DNA of 64,000 nt. It comes from Escherichia coli (GTDB lineage Bacteria; Pseudomonadota; Gammaproteobacteria; Enterobacterales; Enterobacteriaceae). Position numbers and translations under genes: made by a program. Below the pieces are notes generated by a model, which saw only the letters and a program-made list of their open reading frames with translations, had not been told where the DNA came from and made no database searches. The stretch is from the NCBI RefSeq assembly GCF_013315695.1, contig NZ_CP054353.1; one strand, written 5' to 3'. Below are positions 14,901-18,705 of this stretch, in pieces; the first letter of the stretch is position 1, and each line of letters starts with the position of its first letter.

Positions 14901-15724
14901 CTGTTATTTTCATCAATCATCACACCATTGTTTTGGTCATAATTATCATCAACAGAAATATCAATAAGATACGGGGATGTGGTGCTGCTGGTATAAATTG
15001 CTCCGCCATAACCTTCTGCATAGTTATTGGTAAAGGAGGTATTATTAATTATCGTTTTTCCTGAAAGATGTGTGTTATCCGTACTATTATCCGTAACATC
15101 AATGGCACCGCCGTCCCCATCACTATAGCTGGTTGATGTATATGCCTGATTATTATCAAAAATGACATCACTTAAATAAATATCATTATTGATAGAATAA
15201 ATAGCGCCACCTTTACCATCATTGGCGATATTATTCGCAAATATTGCATTAGTGATATTTAAATCCATATCACCGGCATCGTTTGTTCCCGCAGAATAGA
15301 TTGCTCCGCCATAGCCTCCTGCAACGTTACTGTCGAAAATAACATTCGCAAGATTTATCGTTGAGTTTTCTTTAGCAAAGATAGCTCCGCCATTATTATA
15401 TTCGCCACTAATCGAGTTATTAGCAAACAGGGTCATCCCTGTTTCATTTTGTGGTGATATCGTAAATTCAGCACTTTGCTGCAAAAATACGGCGCCACCG
15501 CTGGCATTATTGGCCATACCCGAAAAAATCACCCATTGCCCATCGGCGATGCTCCAGTCCTGCGTAATGCCTGAAAGGCTTTGCCTGCTGGCCTGACAAC
15601 TCGCTTTGATATCATATCCCTGGCATGAATCCAAAACCTCCGCGACACTGTTAACAGAGAAAAGAGATGCAATCATTGACGGGAGTAAAGATAAATACTC
15701 CTTGCGTAGAAAAATAATCCGCAT
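11966..15724 (-). CDS. yfaL: Type Va autotransporter adhesin YfaL (EhaC family)
   Basis: 1252-aa ORF, MRIIFLRKEYLSLLPSMIASLF...; passenger domain with GGAIY repeats; proline-rich PTPDPDPTPDPDPTPDPEPTP linker; C-terminal beta-barrel ending ...FLSMTVKW. Confidence 0.93.
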   Translation of the reverse strand: MRIIFLRKEYLSLLPSMIASLFSVNSVAEVLDSCQGYDIKASCQASRQSLSGITQDWSIADGQWVIFSGMANNASGGAVFLQQSAEFTISPQNETGMTLFANNSISGEYNNGGAIFAKENSTINLANVIFDSNVAGGYGGAIYSAGTNDAGDMDLNITNAIFANNIANDGKGGAIYSINNDIYLSDVIFDNNQAYTSTSYSDGDGGAIDVTDNSTDNTHLSGKTIINNTSFTNNYAEGYGGAIYTSSTTSPYLIDISVDDNYDQNNGVMIDENNSASGYDHSATAAAGGFMYIGHSVAEFNIAADKTLVIGNTSNDGAIDSLAGTGVIVKEGAGELVLNADNNAFTGEMSIQNGEVTLGRSDELMNVGDTHCQSDPQDCFGLMVGSTVHSEYQAELNVGNTQQTFVHSLTGFANGILNIDAGGNVTVNQGGFSGSIQGEGQLTVAQDGSYLLTGAQSMALTGDIVVEDNAVLSLAGNQADLRAMQSDPQSIVLNSGVLDLSDFTTWDGDSSYNDGLQISGSGGTVIGSNDVVDISSGDDLHIGGSDASQNGVYVVINAGDQRVTLANNNGYLGNTQIASGTLEVSDNSQLGDTSYNRSVIFTDPQQHSEMDVTTDVDIRSATTGQGRNIEMRADGEIHVEDGVDTQWGGLMADSTGQQLDSVSTLTKSGGGTLELTASGTATSAVRVEDGTLKGEAENIIPYVSSLWVGEDGVFETGQNQDIRSIDATSGGDIDITDGTVLRLTQQDTNQALDASLFSGDGTLVNATDGVTLTGELNTNLETDSLTYLSDVTVNGDLTNTSGAVSLQNGVAGDTLTVNGDYTGGGTLFLDSELNGDDSASDQLVLNGNTAGNTTVVINPITGIGEPTSTGIKVVDFAADPTQFQNNAQFSLAGSGYVNMGAYDYTLVEDNNDWYLRSQEVNPTPPPDPDPTPDPDPTPDPDPTPDPEPTPAYQPVLNAKVGGYFNNLRAANQAFVMERRDHAGGDGQTLNLRVIGGRYHYTAVGQLAQHEDTSTVQLSGNLFSGHWGDDGEWMLGIVGGYSDNQGDSRSNMTGTRADNQNHGYAVGLTSSWYQHGNQKQGAWLDSWLQYVWFNNDVSEQDDGVDHYHSSGIIASLEAGYQWLPGHGVVIEPQTQVIYQGVQQDDFTAANHARVSQSQGDDIQTRLGLHSEWRTAVGVTPTLDLNYYHDPHSTGIEEDGSTISDDAAKQRGEIKVGITGNISQRVSLRGSVAWQKGSDDFAQTAGFLSMTVKW

Positions 15725-15955
15725 ATTAATCTGACCATCATGTTCTATAAGACGGCATATTTAATCGCATTATACGATATGGGTTATTTTTCTTTTGTAA
15801 ATTGTTCAACCCGGTGCAATGGCTATTTTGTTATTATTTCATGAATAATATCAGTGCGTCATAATTCAAGTTAATCACCTTAAGGGATATCAGTTATGTT
15901 TAAACTGAATTAAAGTAATGAATAATTTTCTTATAATATAAGGTAAATTAACAAA

Positions 15956-16045
15956 ATGGCTTCGCATTTAACAACAACCGAAGAGAAAACAACCATTTCG
16001 ACATCAACAATCGCTTACATTCGCTTATATATTGACCATAACTGA
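15956..16045 (+). CDS. Candidate small ORF (29 aa, MASHLTTTEEKTTISTSTIAYIRLYIDHN) in the yfaL-nrdA intergenic region
   Basis: ATG with aagg 12 nt upstream; no family assignment possible; may be non-coding. Confidence 0.2.
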   Translation: MASHLTTTEEKTTISTSTIAYIRLYIDHN

Positions 16046-16257
16046 TACATCAGATTATGTGATGACTCGTGCTTAGATCAATTTTTGCAATCATTAGCCA
16101 AAAGATTAATAAACCATCTATATCAATTTATCTAACCTATTCTTCCGTTCAAGAAATCGCCGAACAGTTATTTTTAACAAATTTTTCTCTTCCCATTGAC
16201 TTTCCCGGACACCTTGTCTGACCTAAGGTGCGCGAAAGCCACTTTTTCCTTCCTGAG

Positions 16258-16277
16258 TTATCCACAAAGTTATGCAC
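16258..16277 (+). promoter_or_regulatory. Tandem DnaA-box-like sequences upstream of nrdA (ttatccaca, ttatgcac)
   Basis: Match to the TTATNCACA DnaA box; DnaA boxes are known in the nrdAB promoter. Confidence 0.55.
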
Positions 16278-16296
16278 TTGCAAGAGGGCCATTTTC

Positions 16297-16343
16297 ACAC
16301 TATCTTGCAGTGAATCCCAAACATACCCCCTATATATAGTGTT
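16297..16343 (+). promoter_or_regulatory. Two NrdR-box-like palindromes (acactatcttgcagtg and ccctatatatagtgtt) in the nrdA promoter / 5' leader
   Basis: Partial inverted repeats resembling the NrdR box, located about 80-120 nt upstream of the nrdA ATG. Confidence 0.5.
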
Positions 16344-16419
16344 CTAAGCAGCTTCCCTCACTACAGGTAGTCTGCATGAAACTATTGCGGAAAGAATTCC
16401 AAAAACAGGTACGACATAC

Positions 16420-18705
16420 ATGAATCAGAATCTGCTGGTGACAAAGCGCGACGGTAGCACAGAGCGCATCAATCTCGACAAAATCCATCGCGTTCTGGAT
16501 TGGGCGGCAGAAGGACTGCATAACGTTTCGATTTCCCAGGTCGAACTGCGCTCCCACATTCAGTTTTATGACGGTATCAAGACCTCTGACATCCACGAAA
16601 CCATTATCAAGGCTGCCGCAGACCTGATCTCCCGTGATGCGCCGGATTATCAGTATCTCGCCGCGCGCCTGGCGATCTTCCACCTGCGTAAAAAAGCCTA
16701 CGGCCAGTTTGAGCCGCCTGCGCTGTACGACCACGTGGTGAAAATGGTCGAGATGGGCAAATACGATAATCATCTGCTGGAAGACTACACGGAAGAAGAG
16801 TTCAAGCAGATGGACACGTTTATCGATCACGACCGTGATATGACCTTCTCTTATGCTGCCGTTAAGCAGCTGGAAGGCAAATATCTGGTGCAGAACCGTG
16901 TGACCGGCGAAATCTACGAAAGCGCCCAGTTCCTTTATATTCTGGTTGCCGCGTGCCTGTTCTCGAACTACCCGCGTGAAACGCGCCTGCAATACGTGAA
17001 GCGTTTTTACGACGCGGTTTCCACATTTAAAATTTCGCTGCCGACGCCAATCATGTCCGGCGTGCGTACCCCGACTCGTCAGTTCAGCTCCTGCGTACTG
17101 ATCGAGTGCGGCGACAGCCTGGATTCCATCAACGCCACCTCCAGCGCGATTGTTAAATACGTTTCCCAGCGTGCCGGGATCGGCATCAACGCCGGGCGTA
17201 TTCGTGCGCTGGGTAGCCCGATTCGCGGTGGCGAAGCGTTCCATACCGGTTGTATTCCGTTCTATAAGCATTTCCAGACAGCGGTGAAATCCTGCTCTCA
17301 GGGCGGTGTGCGCGGCGGTGCGGCAACACTGTTCTACCCGATGTGGCATCTGGAAGTGGAAAGCCTGCTGGTGTTGAAAAACAACCGTGGGGTTGAAGGC
17401 AACCGCGTGCGTCATATGGACTACGGGGTACAAATCAACAAACTGATGTATACCCGTCTGCTGAAAGGTGAAGATATCACCCTGTTCAGCCCGTCCGACG
17501 TACCGGGGCTGTACGACGCGTTCTTCGCCGATCAGGAAGAGTTTGAACGCCTGTACACCAAATATGAGAAAGATGACAGCATCCGCAAGCAGCGTGTGAA
17601 AGCCGTTGAGCTGTTCTCGCTGATGATGCAGGAACGTGCGTCTACCGGTCGTATCTATATTCAGAACGTAGACCACTGCAACACCCACAGCCCGTTTGAT
17701 CCGGCTATTGCACCAGTGCGCCAGTCTAACCTGTGCCTGGAAATCGCCCTACCGACCAAACCACTGAACGACGTCAACGACGAGAACGGTGAAATCGCGC
17801 TGTGTACGCTTTCTGCTTTCAACCTGGGCGCAATTAACAGCCTGGATGAACTGGAAGAGCTGGCAATTCTGGCGGTTCGCGCACTCGACGCACTGCTGGA
17901 TTATCAGGATTACCCGATCCCGGCCGCTAAACGTGGAGCGATGGGGCGTCGTACGCTGGGTATTGGTGTGATCAACTTCGCTTACTATCTGGCGAAGCAC
18001 GGTAAACGCTACTCCGACGGCAGCGCCAACAACCTGACGCATAAAACCTTCGAAGCCATTCAGTATTACCTGCTGAAAGCGTCTAATGAGCTGGCGAAAG
18101 AGCAAGGCGCGTGCCCGTGGTTTAACGAAACCACTTACGCGAAAGGGATCCTGCCGATCGATACCTATAAGAAAGATCTGGATGCCATCGCTAATGAGCC
18201 GCTGCATTACGACTGGGAAGCACTGCGTGAGTCAATCAAAACGCACGGCCTGCGTAACTCCACGCTTTCTGCTCTGATGCCGTCAGAGACCTCTTCGCAG
18301 ATCTCTAACGCCACTAACGGTATTGAACCGCCGCGTGGTTACGTCAGCATCAAAGCGTCGAAAGACGGTATTCTGCGCCAGGTGGTGCCGGACTACGAGC
18401 ATCTGCACGACGCCTATGAACTGCTGTGGGAAATGCCGGGTAACGATGGCTATCTGCAACTGGTGGGTATCATGCAGAAATTTATCGATCAGTCGATCTC
18501 TGCTAACACCAACTACGATCCGTCACGCTTCCCGTCAGGAAAAGTGCCGATGCAGCAACTGCTGAAAGACCTGCTCACCGCCTACAAATTCGGGGTTAAA
18601 ACGCTGTATTATCAGAACACCCGTGACGGTGCTGAAGACGCACAAGACGATCTGGTGCCGTCAATCCAGGACGATGGCTGCGAAAGCGGCGCATGTAAGA
18701 TCTGA
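16420..18705 (+). CDS. nrdA: Ribonucleoside-diphosphate reductase 1, alpha subunit
   Basis: 761-aa ORF MNQNLLVTKRDGSTERINLDKIHRVLDWAAEGL...; class Ia RNR large subunit. Confidence 0.98.
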   Translation: MNQNLLVTKRDGSTERINLDKIHRVLDWAAEGLHNVSISQVELRSHIQFYDGIKTSDIHETIIKAAADLISRDAPDYQYLAARLAIFHLRKKAYGQFEPPALYDHVVKMVEMGKYDNHLLEDYTEEEFKQMDTFIDHDRDMTFSYAAVKQLEGKYLVQNRVTGEIYESAQFLYILVAACLFSNYPRETRLQYVKRFYDAVSTFKISLPTPIMSGVRTPTRQFSSCVLIECGDSLDSINATSSAIVKYVSQRAGIGINAGRIRALGSPIRGGEAFHTGCIPFYKHFQTAVKSCSQGGVRGGAATLFYPMWHLEVESLLVLKNNRGVEGNRVRHMDYGVQINKLMYTRLLKGEDITLFSPSDVPGLYDAFFADQEEFERLYTKYEKDDSIRKQRVKAVELFSLMMQERASTGRIYIQNVDHCNTHSPFDPAIAPVRQSNLCLEIALPTKPLNDVNDENGEIALCTLSAFNLGAINSLDELEELAILAVRALDALLDYQDYPIPAAKRGAMGRRTLGIGVINFAYYLAKHGKRYSDGSANNLTHKTFEAIQYYLLKASNELAKEQGACPWFNETTYAKGILPIDTYKKDLDAIANEPLHYDWEALRESIKTHGLRNSTLSALMPSETSSQISNATNGIEPPRGYVSIKASKDGILRQVVPDYEHLHDAYELLWEMPGNDGYLQLVGIMQKFIDQSISANTNYDPSRFPSGKVPMQQLLKDLLTAYKFGVKTLYYQNTRDGAEDAQDDLVPSIQDDGCESGACKI

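What the first reader, a model, noticed from the sequence alone, without database searches (positions are those of the whole stretch)
15956..16045. Possible 29-aa small ORF in the AT-rich yfaL-nrdA intergenic region
An ATG with an upstream aagg opens a Thr/Ser-rich 29-codon frame within the 695-bp regulatory region upstream of nrdA. It could be an unannotated small protein or simply part of the nrdA upstream regulatory DNA.
Basis: seen in the sequence. Interest (0 to 1): 0.25.

Follow-up and report, generated by a model that had tools for sequence, protein, structure and literature searches.

The report
Chance ORF in yfaL–nrdA spacer
The 29-codon reading frame is really in the sequence, but it is an accidental open frame in fast-evolving, AT-rich non-coding DNA between the yfaL and nrdA genes of E. 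coli; about 85% of E. coli genomes, including K-12, have it broken by stop codons, so it is ordinary.

Summary
**Observation confirmed.** ATG 15956 to TGA 16045 (+) encodes MASHLTTTEEKTTISTSTIAYIRLYIDHN. "aagg" sits 12 nt upstream. The ORF lies in the 695-bp yfaL–nrdA spacer of an E. coli genome.

- K-12 reads ATG GCT TAG, with a second TAG at codon 10.
- O157-type alleles have TAG at codon 10. B2-type alleles have TTG for ATG plus TAG at codon 3. One genome has a 1-nt deletion.
- Only about 827 of 5,426 complete E. coli genomes (15%) keep the first 12 codons open.
- Variable sites fall 6/4/5 over codon positions, at the same density as the flanks.
- E. albertii and a cryptic Escherichia have no ATG and two in-frame stops at the syntenic place.
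- 96% of dinucleotide shuffles of the spacer contain an ATG-ORF of this length or longer.
- The peptide is not in a 15-billion-protein collection, and RefSeq never annotates it.

**What is there.** It is 29% GC non-coding DNA outside the conserved nrdA regulatory block, which starts near 16145. It lies just downstream of, and antisense to, the predicted yfaL promoter TTGATC-16-CATAAT (16081→16054). The spacer is reported to bind RNA polymerase and H-NS in vitro. The annotated ypaB is a different ORF (16149–16292, minus strand).

**Verdict:** not a gene; low interest.

The parts
15956..16045 (+). The 29-codon ORF of the finding (ATG...TGA). It is a chance open frame and is polymorphic within E. 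coli: open in about 15% of genomes.
   Evidence: ORF; stops at codons 3 and 10, ATG->TTG, 1-nt deletion in other E. coli; 612 + 215 genomes with the open 41-nt haplotypes; no codon-position bias; shuffles
15939..15943 (+). UAAGG, a weak Shine-Dalgarno-like match 12 nt upstream of the ATG
   Evidence: sequence; duplex with the 16S 3' end is -4.0 kcal/mol; 16% of random positions are as good or better
16054..16081 (-). Predicted sigma-70 promoter of yfaL, TTGATC-16-CATAAT. A transcript starting near 16047 would read leftwards through the ORF region, antisense to it, as the yfaL 5' leader.
   Evidence: consensus scan; Shimada et al. 2014, PMC3946193, Table 1: the same hexamers are listed for yfaL in a spacer that bound RpoD holoenzyme in genomic SELEX and is marked HNS. 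The start site itself is inferred, not mapped.
15725..16144 (.). Distal (yfaL-side) part of the spacer: 29% GC, fast-evolving, and not alignable by blastn outside E. coli proper. It contains the ORF.
   Evidence: composition; no conservation in E. albertii, the cryptic Escherichia L014 or Pseudocitrobacter, although all three keep yfaL-nrdA synteny
16011..16030 (.). Tandem 10-bp direct repeat TCGCTTACAT/TCGCTTATAT inside the 3' half of the ORF. It is the only island of the distal spacer that stays recognisable in the outgroups (TTTACATTCGCTCACAT...). Possible protein-binding site; function unknown.
   Evidence: sequence; invariant columns T291-C298, G299, T301, A303, A305-T306, T309-A311, C313-A314
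16145..16419 (+). Conserved nrdA regulatory block and 5' leader. It holds the AT tract at 16168-16186, DnaA boxes TTATCCACA (16258-16266) and TTATGCACT (16270-16278), -35 TTGCAA (16278-16283) and -10 TATCTT (16301-16306).
   Evidence: 82-97% identity to L014, L015 and L017 from spacer position 353-422 onward; review: DnaA boxes, Fis and IciA at the nrdAB promoter. Motif assignment is from sequence plus established consensus; the Fis site centred at -156 is recalled from the Augustin et al. 1994 abstract (memory).
16149..16292 (-). ypaB, the only gene RefSeq annotates in the spacer. It is a different ORF on the other strand and is not part of the finding.
   Evidence: coordinates converted from locus 1925-2068; no Pfam or NCBIfam family
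11966..15724 (-). yfaL (AIDA-I family autotransporter adhesin YfaL/EhaC), the left flank
16420..18705 (+). nrdA (class Ia ribonucleotide reductase alpha subunit), the right flank

Best explanation
The 29-codon frame is not a gene. It is an accidental open reading frame in the AT-rich, rapidly evolving, yfaL-proximal half of the divergent yfaL-nrdA intergenic region.

**How the frame came to be open.** It is open only in a minority lineage of E. coli. Three point changes opened it relative to the ancestral state:
- a start codon arose (GCG or TTG became ATG);
- TAG became TCG at codon 3;
- TAA or TAG became GAG at codon 10.

The Thr/Ser-rich 'protein' is a by-product of the A/C-rich strand (AACAACAACC..ACAACC..CAACAA).

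**What the DNA most likely does (inferred).** It serves on the other strand and as DNA. It lies immediately downstream of the predicted sigma-70 promoter of yfaL (TTGATC-16-CATAAT, 16081->16054). It would therefore be the first ~90 nt of a long yfaL 5' leader. It is also part of an AT-rich tract that H-NS can coat, silencing the cryptic adhesin gene yfaL and possibly dampening nrdAB.

**Shown:** polymorphic stops, lack of coding-type constraint, lack of conservation, lack of any database homologue, and the chance expectation.

**Inferred:** the yfaL leader role and the H-NS role. These rest on in vitro genomic SELEX at spacer resolution and a consensus promoter match.

The stated confidence (0.9) is for 'not a gene'. 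The yfaL-leader and H-NS sub-claim alone would be about 0.5.
For: **Disruption within E. coli**
- K-12: ATG GCT TAG plus TAG at codon 10.
- O157:H7-type and related alleles: TAG at codon 10. B2-type: TTG for ATG plus TAG at codon 3. One genome has a 1-nt deletion.
- Exact 41-nt haplotype counts give 612 + 215 open genomes of 5,426. The mismatch classes fit about 1,700 genomes with the codon-10 stop, about 1,840 K-12-type and about 1,050 B2-type.

**No coding signature**
- The 15 variable sites split 6/4/5 over codon positions. Their density is 15/90, against 13/59 and 11/60 in the flanks.
- The two open alleles differ by T7I, T16I and H28Q.

**Outgroups that keep yfaL-nrdA synteny**
- They conserve only the nrdA-proximal ~275-345 nt.
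- The syntenic frame reads INKANFNFTLAD*KTPVL* with no Met.

**Chance expectation and database checks**
- Shuffles: 96% contain an ATG-ORF of 29 aa or more.
- The peptide is absent from the 15-billion-protein collection and has no Pfam or NCBIfam match.
- tblastn against 80 Enterobacterales nrdA loci gave a best E-value of 0.1.
- RefSeq annotates nothing under the match in any of 60 sampled genomes, including those with the open allele.

**Context**
- The distal spacer is 29% GC.
- The predicted yfaL promoter appears and is the same hexamer pair that Shimada et al. 2014 list for yfaL, in a spacer that bound RpoD holoenzyme and is marked HNS.
- H-NS is named as a repressor of class Ia RNR genes.
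Against: - In the 15% of genomes with the open allele, the ATG has a weak UAAGG 12 nt upstream, and the surrounding RNA is predicted to be nearly unstructured (-3.1 kcal/mol). A perfect TATAAT (15932-15937) and a TTTAAA-16-AATAAT match lie just upstream. Occasional transcription and translation therefore cannot be excluded from sequence alone.
- The 3' half of the ORF overlaps the only conserved island of the distal spacer, so part of the DNA is under some constraint, though not a coding one.
- The yfaL start site has not been mapped here, and the H-NS evidence is at spacer resolution only.
Confidence: 0.9

Rival explanations
1. Lineage-specific (de novo) micro-protein. In the ~15% of E. coli where three point mutations opened the frame, a spurious rightward promoter in the AT-rich DNA produces a short transcript, and the 29-aa Thr/Ser-rich peptide is made. 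It would be a proto-gene, with or without function.
For: The frame is open in 612 + 215 genomes. UAAGG lies 12 nt upstream with a -4.0 kcal/mol duplex, and the start region is unstructured. Promoter-like hexamers lie just upstream (TATAAT at 15932-15937).
Against: There is no coding-type constraint even between the two open alleles: three non-synonymous differences, and an even spread over codon positions. Stops are present in 85% of the species and in the outgroups. There are no homologues. ORFs of this size are expected by chance. Promoter-like sites are not enriched: 6 found against 3.6 +/- 1.9 expected. The spacer is reported as H-NS-bound, which would silence such promoters.
Confidence: 0.04
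2. The stretch is a far-upstream part of the nrdA regulatory region. It would hold extra Fis, H-NS or other sites acting on the nrdAB promoter from -265 to -354, and it is non-coding.
For: The nrdAB promoter is regulated by Fis, IciA, DnaA, NrdR and H-NS. The spacer is marked as H-NS-bound, and H-NS spreading could reach both promoters (authors' argument). A conserved island lies at 16011-16038.
Against: Sequence conservation linked to nrdA stops at about 16145 in E. albertii, the cryptic Escherichia and Pseudocitrobacter. That is about 100 nt to the right of the ORF. From my memory of Augustin 1994 and Sun 1994, the characterised cis elements (Fis site at -156, AT-rich tract, DnaA boxes) all lie inside the conserved block. 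The ORF region varies as fast as its flanks.
Confidence: 0.2
3. The stretch encodes a small non-coding RNA, or is a leader-peptide (attenuation) ORF controlling nrdA.
For: None specific. The only basis is that it is a long intergenic region next to a highly regulated operon.
Against: No Rfam family matches; the best is a sub-threshold hit of 19.5 bits against a gathering score of 94.2. The 900 nt scanned contain no intrinsic terminator-like site. The ORF lies about 265-354 nt upstream of the nrdA promoter elements and so is not in the nrdA leader. It is not conserved.
Confidence: 0.02

Closest known systems
Spurious short ORFs in AT-rich, H-NS-bound intergenic DNA of E. coli (non-genic ORFs or 'proto-genes')
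   Same: It is short and AT-rich, has promoter-like hexamers nearby, shows presence/absence polymorphism through point mutations, has no constraint and no homologues, and is of a length expected by chance.
   Different: Nothing distinguishes it from this class. Expression has not been measured.
ypaB (b4605), the annotated 47-aa ORF of the same spacer
   Same: It is also a tiny uncharacterised ORF in the yfaL-nrdA spacer with no family assignment.
   Different: ypaB lies on the minus strand at 16149-16292, overlapping the nrdA promoter and DnaA boxes. The finding is on the plus strand at 15956-16045, about 100 nt away, and is never annotated.
Validated E. coli small proteins found by initiation-complex ribosome profiling (e.g. 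YoaM, antisense to nrdAB; Weaver et al. 2019, bioRxiv 10.1101/511675)
   Same: Similar size class and the same genomic neighbourhood.
   Different: Those were detected in K-12 by ribosome profiling and by tagging or fusions. In K-12 the finding's frame is ATG GCT TAG, so it cannot be among them.
nrdAB upstream regulatory module (Fis site, AT-rich tract, DnaA boxes, NrdR boxes)
   Same: Same intergenic region; non-coding DNA.
   Different: That module is conserved with nrdA across genera (16145-16419). The ORF region is not.

Membership tests
Bacterial small-protein gene (sORF of 50 aa or fewer) | Intact ORF (start codon, no premature stop, same frame) in close relatives | tested here: not met
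   K-12 has TAG at codons 3 and 10. O157-type has TAG at codon 10. B2-type has TTG for ATG plus TAG at codon 3. One genome has a 1-nt deletion. Only 827 of 5,426 genomes are open. Outgroups have no ATG and two stops.
Bacterial small-protein gene (sORF of 50 aa or fewer) | Coding-type substitution pattern (excess at third positions, synonymous over non-synonymous changes) | tested here: not met
   Variable sites are 6/4/5 by codon position. There are 4 synonymous changes against 15 non-synonymous or stop-related changes (including loss of the stop codon). Density equals that of the flanks.
Bacterial small-protein gene (sORF of 50 aa or fewer) | Ribosome-binding site at functional spacing | tested here: inconclusive
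   UAAGG lies 12 nt upstream with a duplex energy of -4.0 kcal/mol. 16% of random positions do as well, and nrdA's own site scores -3.8, so the measure does not discriminate.
Bacterial small-protein gene (sORF of 50 aa or fewer) | Homologues or family membership in protein databases | tested here: not met
   The exact peptide is absent from ~15 billion proteins. No Pfam or NCBIfam hit. tblastn best E-value is 0.1 in 80 loci.
Bacterial small-protein gene (sORF of 50 aa or fewer) | Direct evidence of translation (ribosome profiling, tagging, mass spectrometry) | not testable with these tools
   No expression data are available for a strain with the open allele. The K-12 data sets cannot contain it because the frame is closed there.
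Leader peptide / uORF of the nrdAB operon | Lies within the 5' leader of the regulated transcript and is followed by a terminator or occluded RBS | tested here: not met
   The ORF ends 233 nt to the left of the -35 element (16278-16283), so it is upstream of the promoter. No terminator-like site was found.
Conserved nrdA cis-regulatory module | Sequence conserved together with nrdA in related genera | tested here: not met
   blastn and MAFFT conservation begins at spacer position 353-422 (window 16077-16146). The ORF occupies spacer positions 232-321.
H-NS-bound divergent promoter spacer / yfaL promoter-leader region | AT-rich DNA that binds H-NS and RNA polymerase, with a promoter directed towards yfaL upstream of the stretch | tested here: inconclusive
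   Composition is met: 29% GC. The promoter consensus TTGATC-16-CATAAT is present and is listed for yfaL with an HNS mark by Shimada et al. 2014. However, binding is known only at spacer resolution and in vitro, the start site is unmapped, and the 10-mer H-NS motif scan was uninformative.
Known small RNA families (Rfam) | Match to a covariance model at gathering score | tested here: not met
   The only hit is IS605-orfB-I at 19.5 bits against a gathering score of 94.2, E = 0.11.
ypaB | Same coordinates and strand as the annotated gene | tested here: not met
   ypaB is at window 16149-16292 on the minus strand.

The most novel reading that the evidence does not exclude
The frame is a very young de novo micro-protein gene. 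It was born inside E. coli by three point mutations (gain of ATG and removal of two stops). It would be translated in about 15% of strains from a pervasive promoter in H-NS-controlled AT-rich DNA, giving a natural snapshot of proto-gene birth with open and closed alleles segregating in one species.
Probability: 0.03. Interest if true: 0.35.

Novelty: not a real feature. Interest (0 to 1): 0.04.

Why it matters
It matters little. The result removes a candidate small protein from consideration and shows that the yfaL–nrdA spacer has two parts with very different evolutionary behaviour. One part is a conserved nrdA regulatory block of about 275 bp. The other is a fast-evolving, AT-rich yfaL-side part of about 420 bp, in which short ORFs open and close by single mutations. 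If the open allele were translated, it would be a modest example of proto-gene polymorphism within a species.

Tried and rejected
- **Rfam scan of 15500-16600** with permissive thresholds gave only a noise-level hit.
- **Terminator scan** found none. Promoter-like sites are not enriched: 6 found against 3.6 ± 1.9 expected.
- **H-NS high-affinity 10-mer** (TCGATAAATT, up to 2 mismatches) is not enriched in the window and does not occur inside the ORF. The result is uninformative.
- **Anti-SD duplex energy** does not discriminate. nrdA's own site scores no better than the finding.
- **Original nrd promoter papers** (Augustin 1994, Sun 1994, Cendra 2013) are not held. The −156 Fis position and the 110-nt leader therefore rest on my memory of those papers.
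- **Genome-wide TSS tables.** The Cappable-seq GTF is truncated in storage, and the SMRT-Cappable-seq supplements hold no yfaL, nrdA or ypaB entry. The yfaL start site therefore remains unmapped here.
- **OmpR idea.** I considered that the conserved 10-bp direct repeat might be an OmpR-type site. One literature search (yfaL + OmpR) gave nothing relevant, and it was not pursued.
- **Is the finding ypaB?** No: different strand and coordinates.

Full report
**1. The observation**

The window is E. coli. The 695-bp stretch 15725-16419 is 100% identical to strain MS 21-1 and is present in 5,422 of 5,426 complete E. coli genomes. It separates yfaL (11966-15724, minus strand, AIDA-I-type autotransporter) from nrdA (16420-18705, plus strand).

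The ORF listing gives the ORF exactly as described: 15956..16045 (+), ATG start, 29 aa, MASHLTTTEEKTTISTSTIAYIRLYIDHN. 'aagg' is at 15940-15943, 12 nt before the ATG.

It is not beyond chance. In 2,000 dinucleotide-preserving shuffles of the spacer, 96% contain at least one ATG-ORF of 29 aa or more. The mean is 2.8, and the real spacer has 3. The SD-like duplex (−4.0 kcal/mol) is matched or beaten at 16% of random window positions.

**2. Is it annotated or known?**

RefSeq annotates one gene in the spacer, ypaB. It lies at window 16149-16292 on the minus strand, over the nrdA promoter, and is a different ORF.

Nothing is annotated under the finding in any of 60 genomes sampled evenly down the ranking, including genomes with the identical ORF. 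The exact peptide, and the variant from the second open allele, are absent from a collection of about 15 billion predicted proteins. There is no Pfam or NCBIfam match and no Rfam family.

**3. Conservation within E. coli: the decisive test**

An alignment of the spacer with K-12 and a B2-type genome shows that K-12 reads ATG GCT TAG, a stop at codon 3, with a second TAG at codon 10. The B2-type allele has TTG instead of ATG and TAG at codon 3.

I sampled one to three genomes from each identity class of a 90-nt search (loci) and translated them.

| State | Alleles |
|---|---|
| Open | The window allele; a one-synonymous-change variant (L004, L005); a second allele with T7I, T16I and H28Q (L006, L008) |
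| Closed | O157:H7-type and a related allele (TAG at codon 10); K-12-type (TAG at codons 3 and 10); two TTG-start alleles with a stop at codon 3 or 10; one genome with a 1-nt deletion |

Exact-match counts of 41-nt probes that cover the start codon and both stop positions give 612 genomes for the window haplotype and 215 for the second open haplotype. That is about 827 of 5,426 (15%).

The mismatch classes of the same searches fit the following rough partition. This partition is inferred from mismatch classes plus the sampled sequences, not from every genome.
- About 1,700 genomes with the codon-10 stop only.
- About 1,840 K-12-type genomes.
- About 1,050 TTG-type genomes.

**4. Substitution pattern**

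Among nine distinct 90-nt alleles, the 15 variable sites split 6/4/5 over codon positions 1/2/3. Variable-site density in the ORF (15/90) equals that of the 60-nt flanks (13/59 and 11/60). Changes are overwhelmingly non-synonymous or nonsense. There is no coding signature.

The Thr/Ser richness follows from the A/C-rich strand: AACAACAACC, ACAACC, CAACAA.

**5. Outgroups**

A scan of one genome per species with the NrdA N-terminus returned 80 Enterobacterales loci. Five retain yfaL next to nrdA: E. albertii L015, a divergent 'E. coli' L014, a Pseudocitrobacter MAG L017, and L041 and L077.

In L014, L015 and L017, blastn and MAFFT conserve only the nrdA-proximal part. This runs from spacer position 353-422, that is window ~16077-16146, to the nrdA start. 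Identity there is 82-97%. The ORF region is not detectably homologous by blastn.

In the global alignment, the syntenic frame in L014 and L015 has GCG where E. coli has ATG, TAA at codon 10 and TGA at codon 16. It reads INKANFNFTLAD*KTPVL*. The open state is therefore derived, through gain of ATG and loss of two stops.

tblastn of the peptide against all 80 loci gives nothing better than E = 0.1. That hit is at the syntenic place in L014 and reflects residual DNA similarity.

**6. What the DNA is**

The spacer has two parts.

*The nrdA-side block.* The right-hand ~275 bp (16145-16419, 42.5% GC) is conserved across genera. It holds:
- an AT tract (16168-16186);
- two DnaA-box matches, TTATCCACA at 16258-16266 and TTATGCACT at 16270-16278;
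- −35 TTGCAA and −10 TATCTT;
- NrdR-box-like palindromes.

These come from the sequence and its conservation. Reviews confirm that DnaA, Fis, IciA, NrdR and H-NS act at this promoter. The positions 'Fis site centred at −156' and 'start site 110 nt before the ATG' are from my memory of Augustin et al. 1994 and Tuggle & Fuchs 1986, because those papers are not held. If they are right, the left border of the conserved block coincides with the Fis site.

*The yfaL-side part.* The left-hand ~420 bp (15725-16144) is 29% GC, evolves fast, and contains the ORF.

The consensus scan finds a minus-strand promoter-like site, TTGATC-16-CATAAT, at 16081→16054. Shimada et al. 2014 (PMC3946193, Table 1) list exactly this hexamer pair as the best leftward promoter for yfaL. 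They place it in a spacer that bound RpoD holoenzyme in genomic SELEX and mark that spacer as containing an H-NS site. Both hexamers are unchanged in the B2-type allele, while three bases of the 16-nt spacer between them differ.

A transcript from this promoter would start near 16047 and run leftwards through 16045-15956. The ORF would then be the antisense of the first ~90 nt of a ~320-nt yfaL leader. This step is inferred; no start-site data could be retrieved.

**7. Mechanistic conclusion**

The most likely reading (confidence about 0.9 for 'not a gene') is a chance ORF in non-coding DNA. The DNA itself probably works as part of the yfaL promoter-leader region and as AT-rich substrate for H-NS, which may affect both divergent promoters. 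This functional sub-claim carries perhaps 0.5 confidence.

Rivals, in order of confidence:
- a far-upstream nrdA regulatory role (0.2; not exclusive of the above);
- a lineage-specific translated proto-gene (0.04);
- an sRNA or leader peptide (0.02).

**8. Comparison with known things and novelty**

It behaves like the many non-genic short ORFs of AT-rich intergenic DNA. It fails every testable defining feature of a small-protein gene, namely an intact frame in relatives, coding-type substitution and homologues. Only the RBS criterion is inconclusive, and translation is untestable here.

It is not ypaB. It is not in the nrdA leader. It is not part of the conserved nrd module.

Verdict: not a real feature as a gene; interest 0.04.

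Noticed in passing
window 16149-16292 (minus strand): ypaB, annotated 'protein YpaB' (47 aa) in RefSeq, lies antisense over the nrdA promoter (DnaA boxes and the -35 element). It has no Pfam or NCBIfam family. It is annotated in genomes with the K-12-like spacer but not in the five sampled genomes with the ~90%-identity B2-type spacer. In the divergent Escherichia L014 the same frame runs for 90 aa. Its reality as a gene looks doubtful.
   Followed up: partly
window 16011-16030 (extending to ~16038): A tandem 10-bp direct repeat, TCGCTTACAT/TCGCTTATAT, followed by ATTGACCA. It is the only island of the yfaL-side spacer still recognisable in E. albertii, L014 and Pseudocitrobacter (TTTACATTCGCTCACATTATGAACA). 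The one-helical-turn spacing suggests a protein-binding site, such as a response-regulator-type direct repeat. No supporting literature was found.
   Followed up: partly
window 16388-16400: The B2-type spacer allele (about 1,100 records at 80-90% identity) lacks 13 nt (CGGAAAGAATTCC) of the nrdA 5' untranslated leader, about 20 nt upstream of the start codon. It differs by ~10% over the rest of the spacer. So there are two deeply diverged haplotype classes upstream of an essential operon.
   Followed up: no
window 11966-15724 / L001 1-1500: In strain MS 21-1, whose spacer is 100% identical to the window, RefSeq flags yfaL as a pseudogene ('internal stop'). In the window, yfaL is an uninterrupted 1,252-aa ORF.
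   Followed up: no
window 15932-15937 and 15899-15926 (plus strand): A perfect TATAAT hexamer and a TTTAAA-16-AATAAT match lie just upstream of the ORF. Such promoter-like sequences are typical of AT-rich DNA and are not enriched over shuffles. They would matter only if rightward transcription were shown.
   Followed up: partly
nrdA-nrdB region of the window (antisense), not examined: The literature (Weaver et al. 2019, bioRxiv 10.1101/511675) reports a small ORF, yoaM, antisense to the nrdAB operon, with support from a lacZ fusion. It is unrelated to the finding, but it is a genuine small-protein candidate in the neighbourhood.
   Followed up: no
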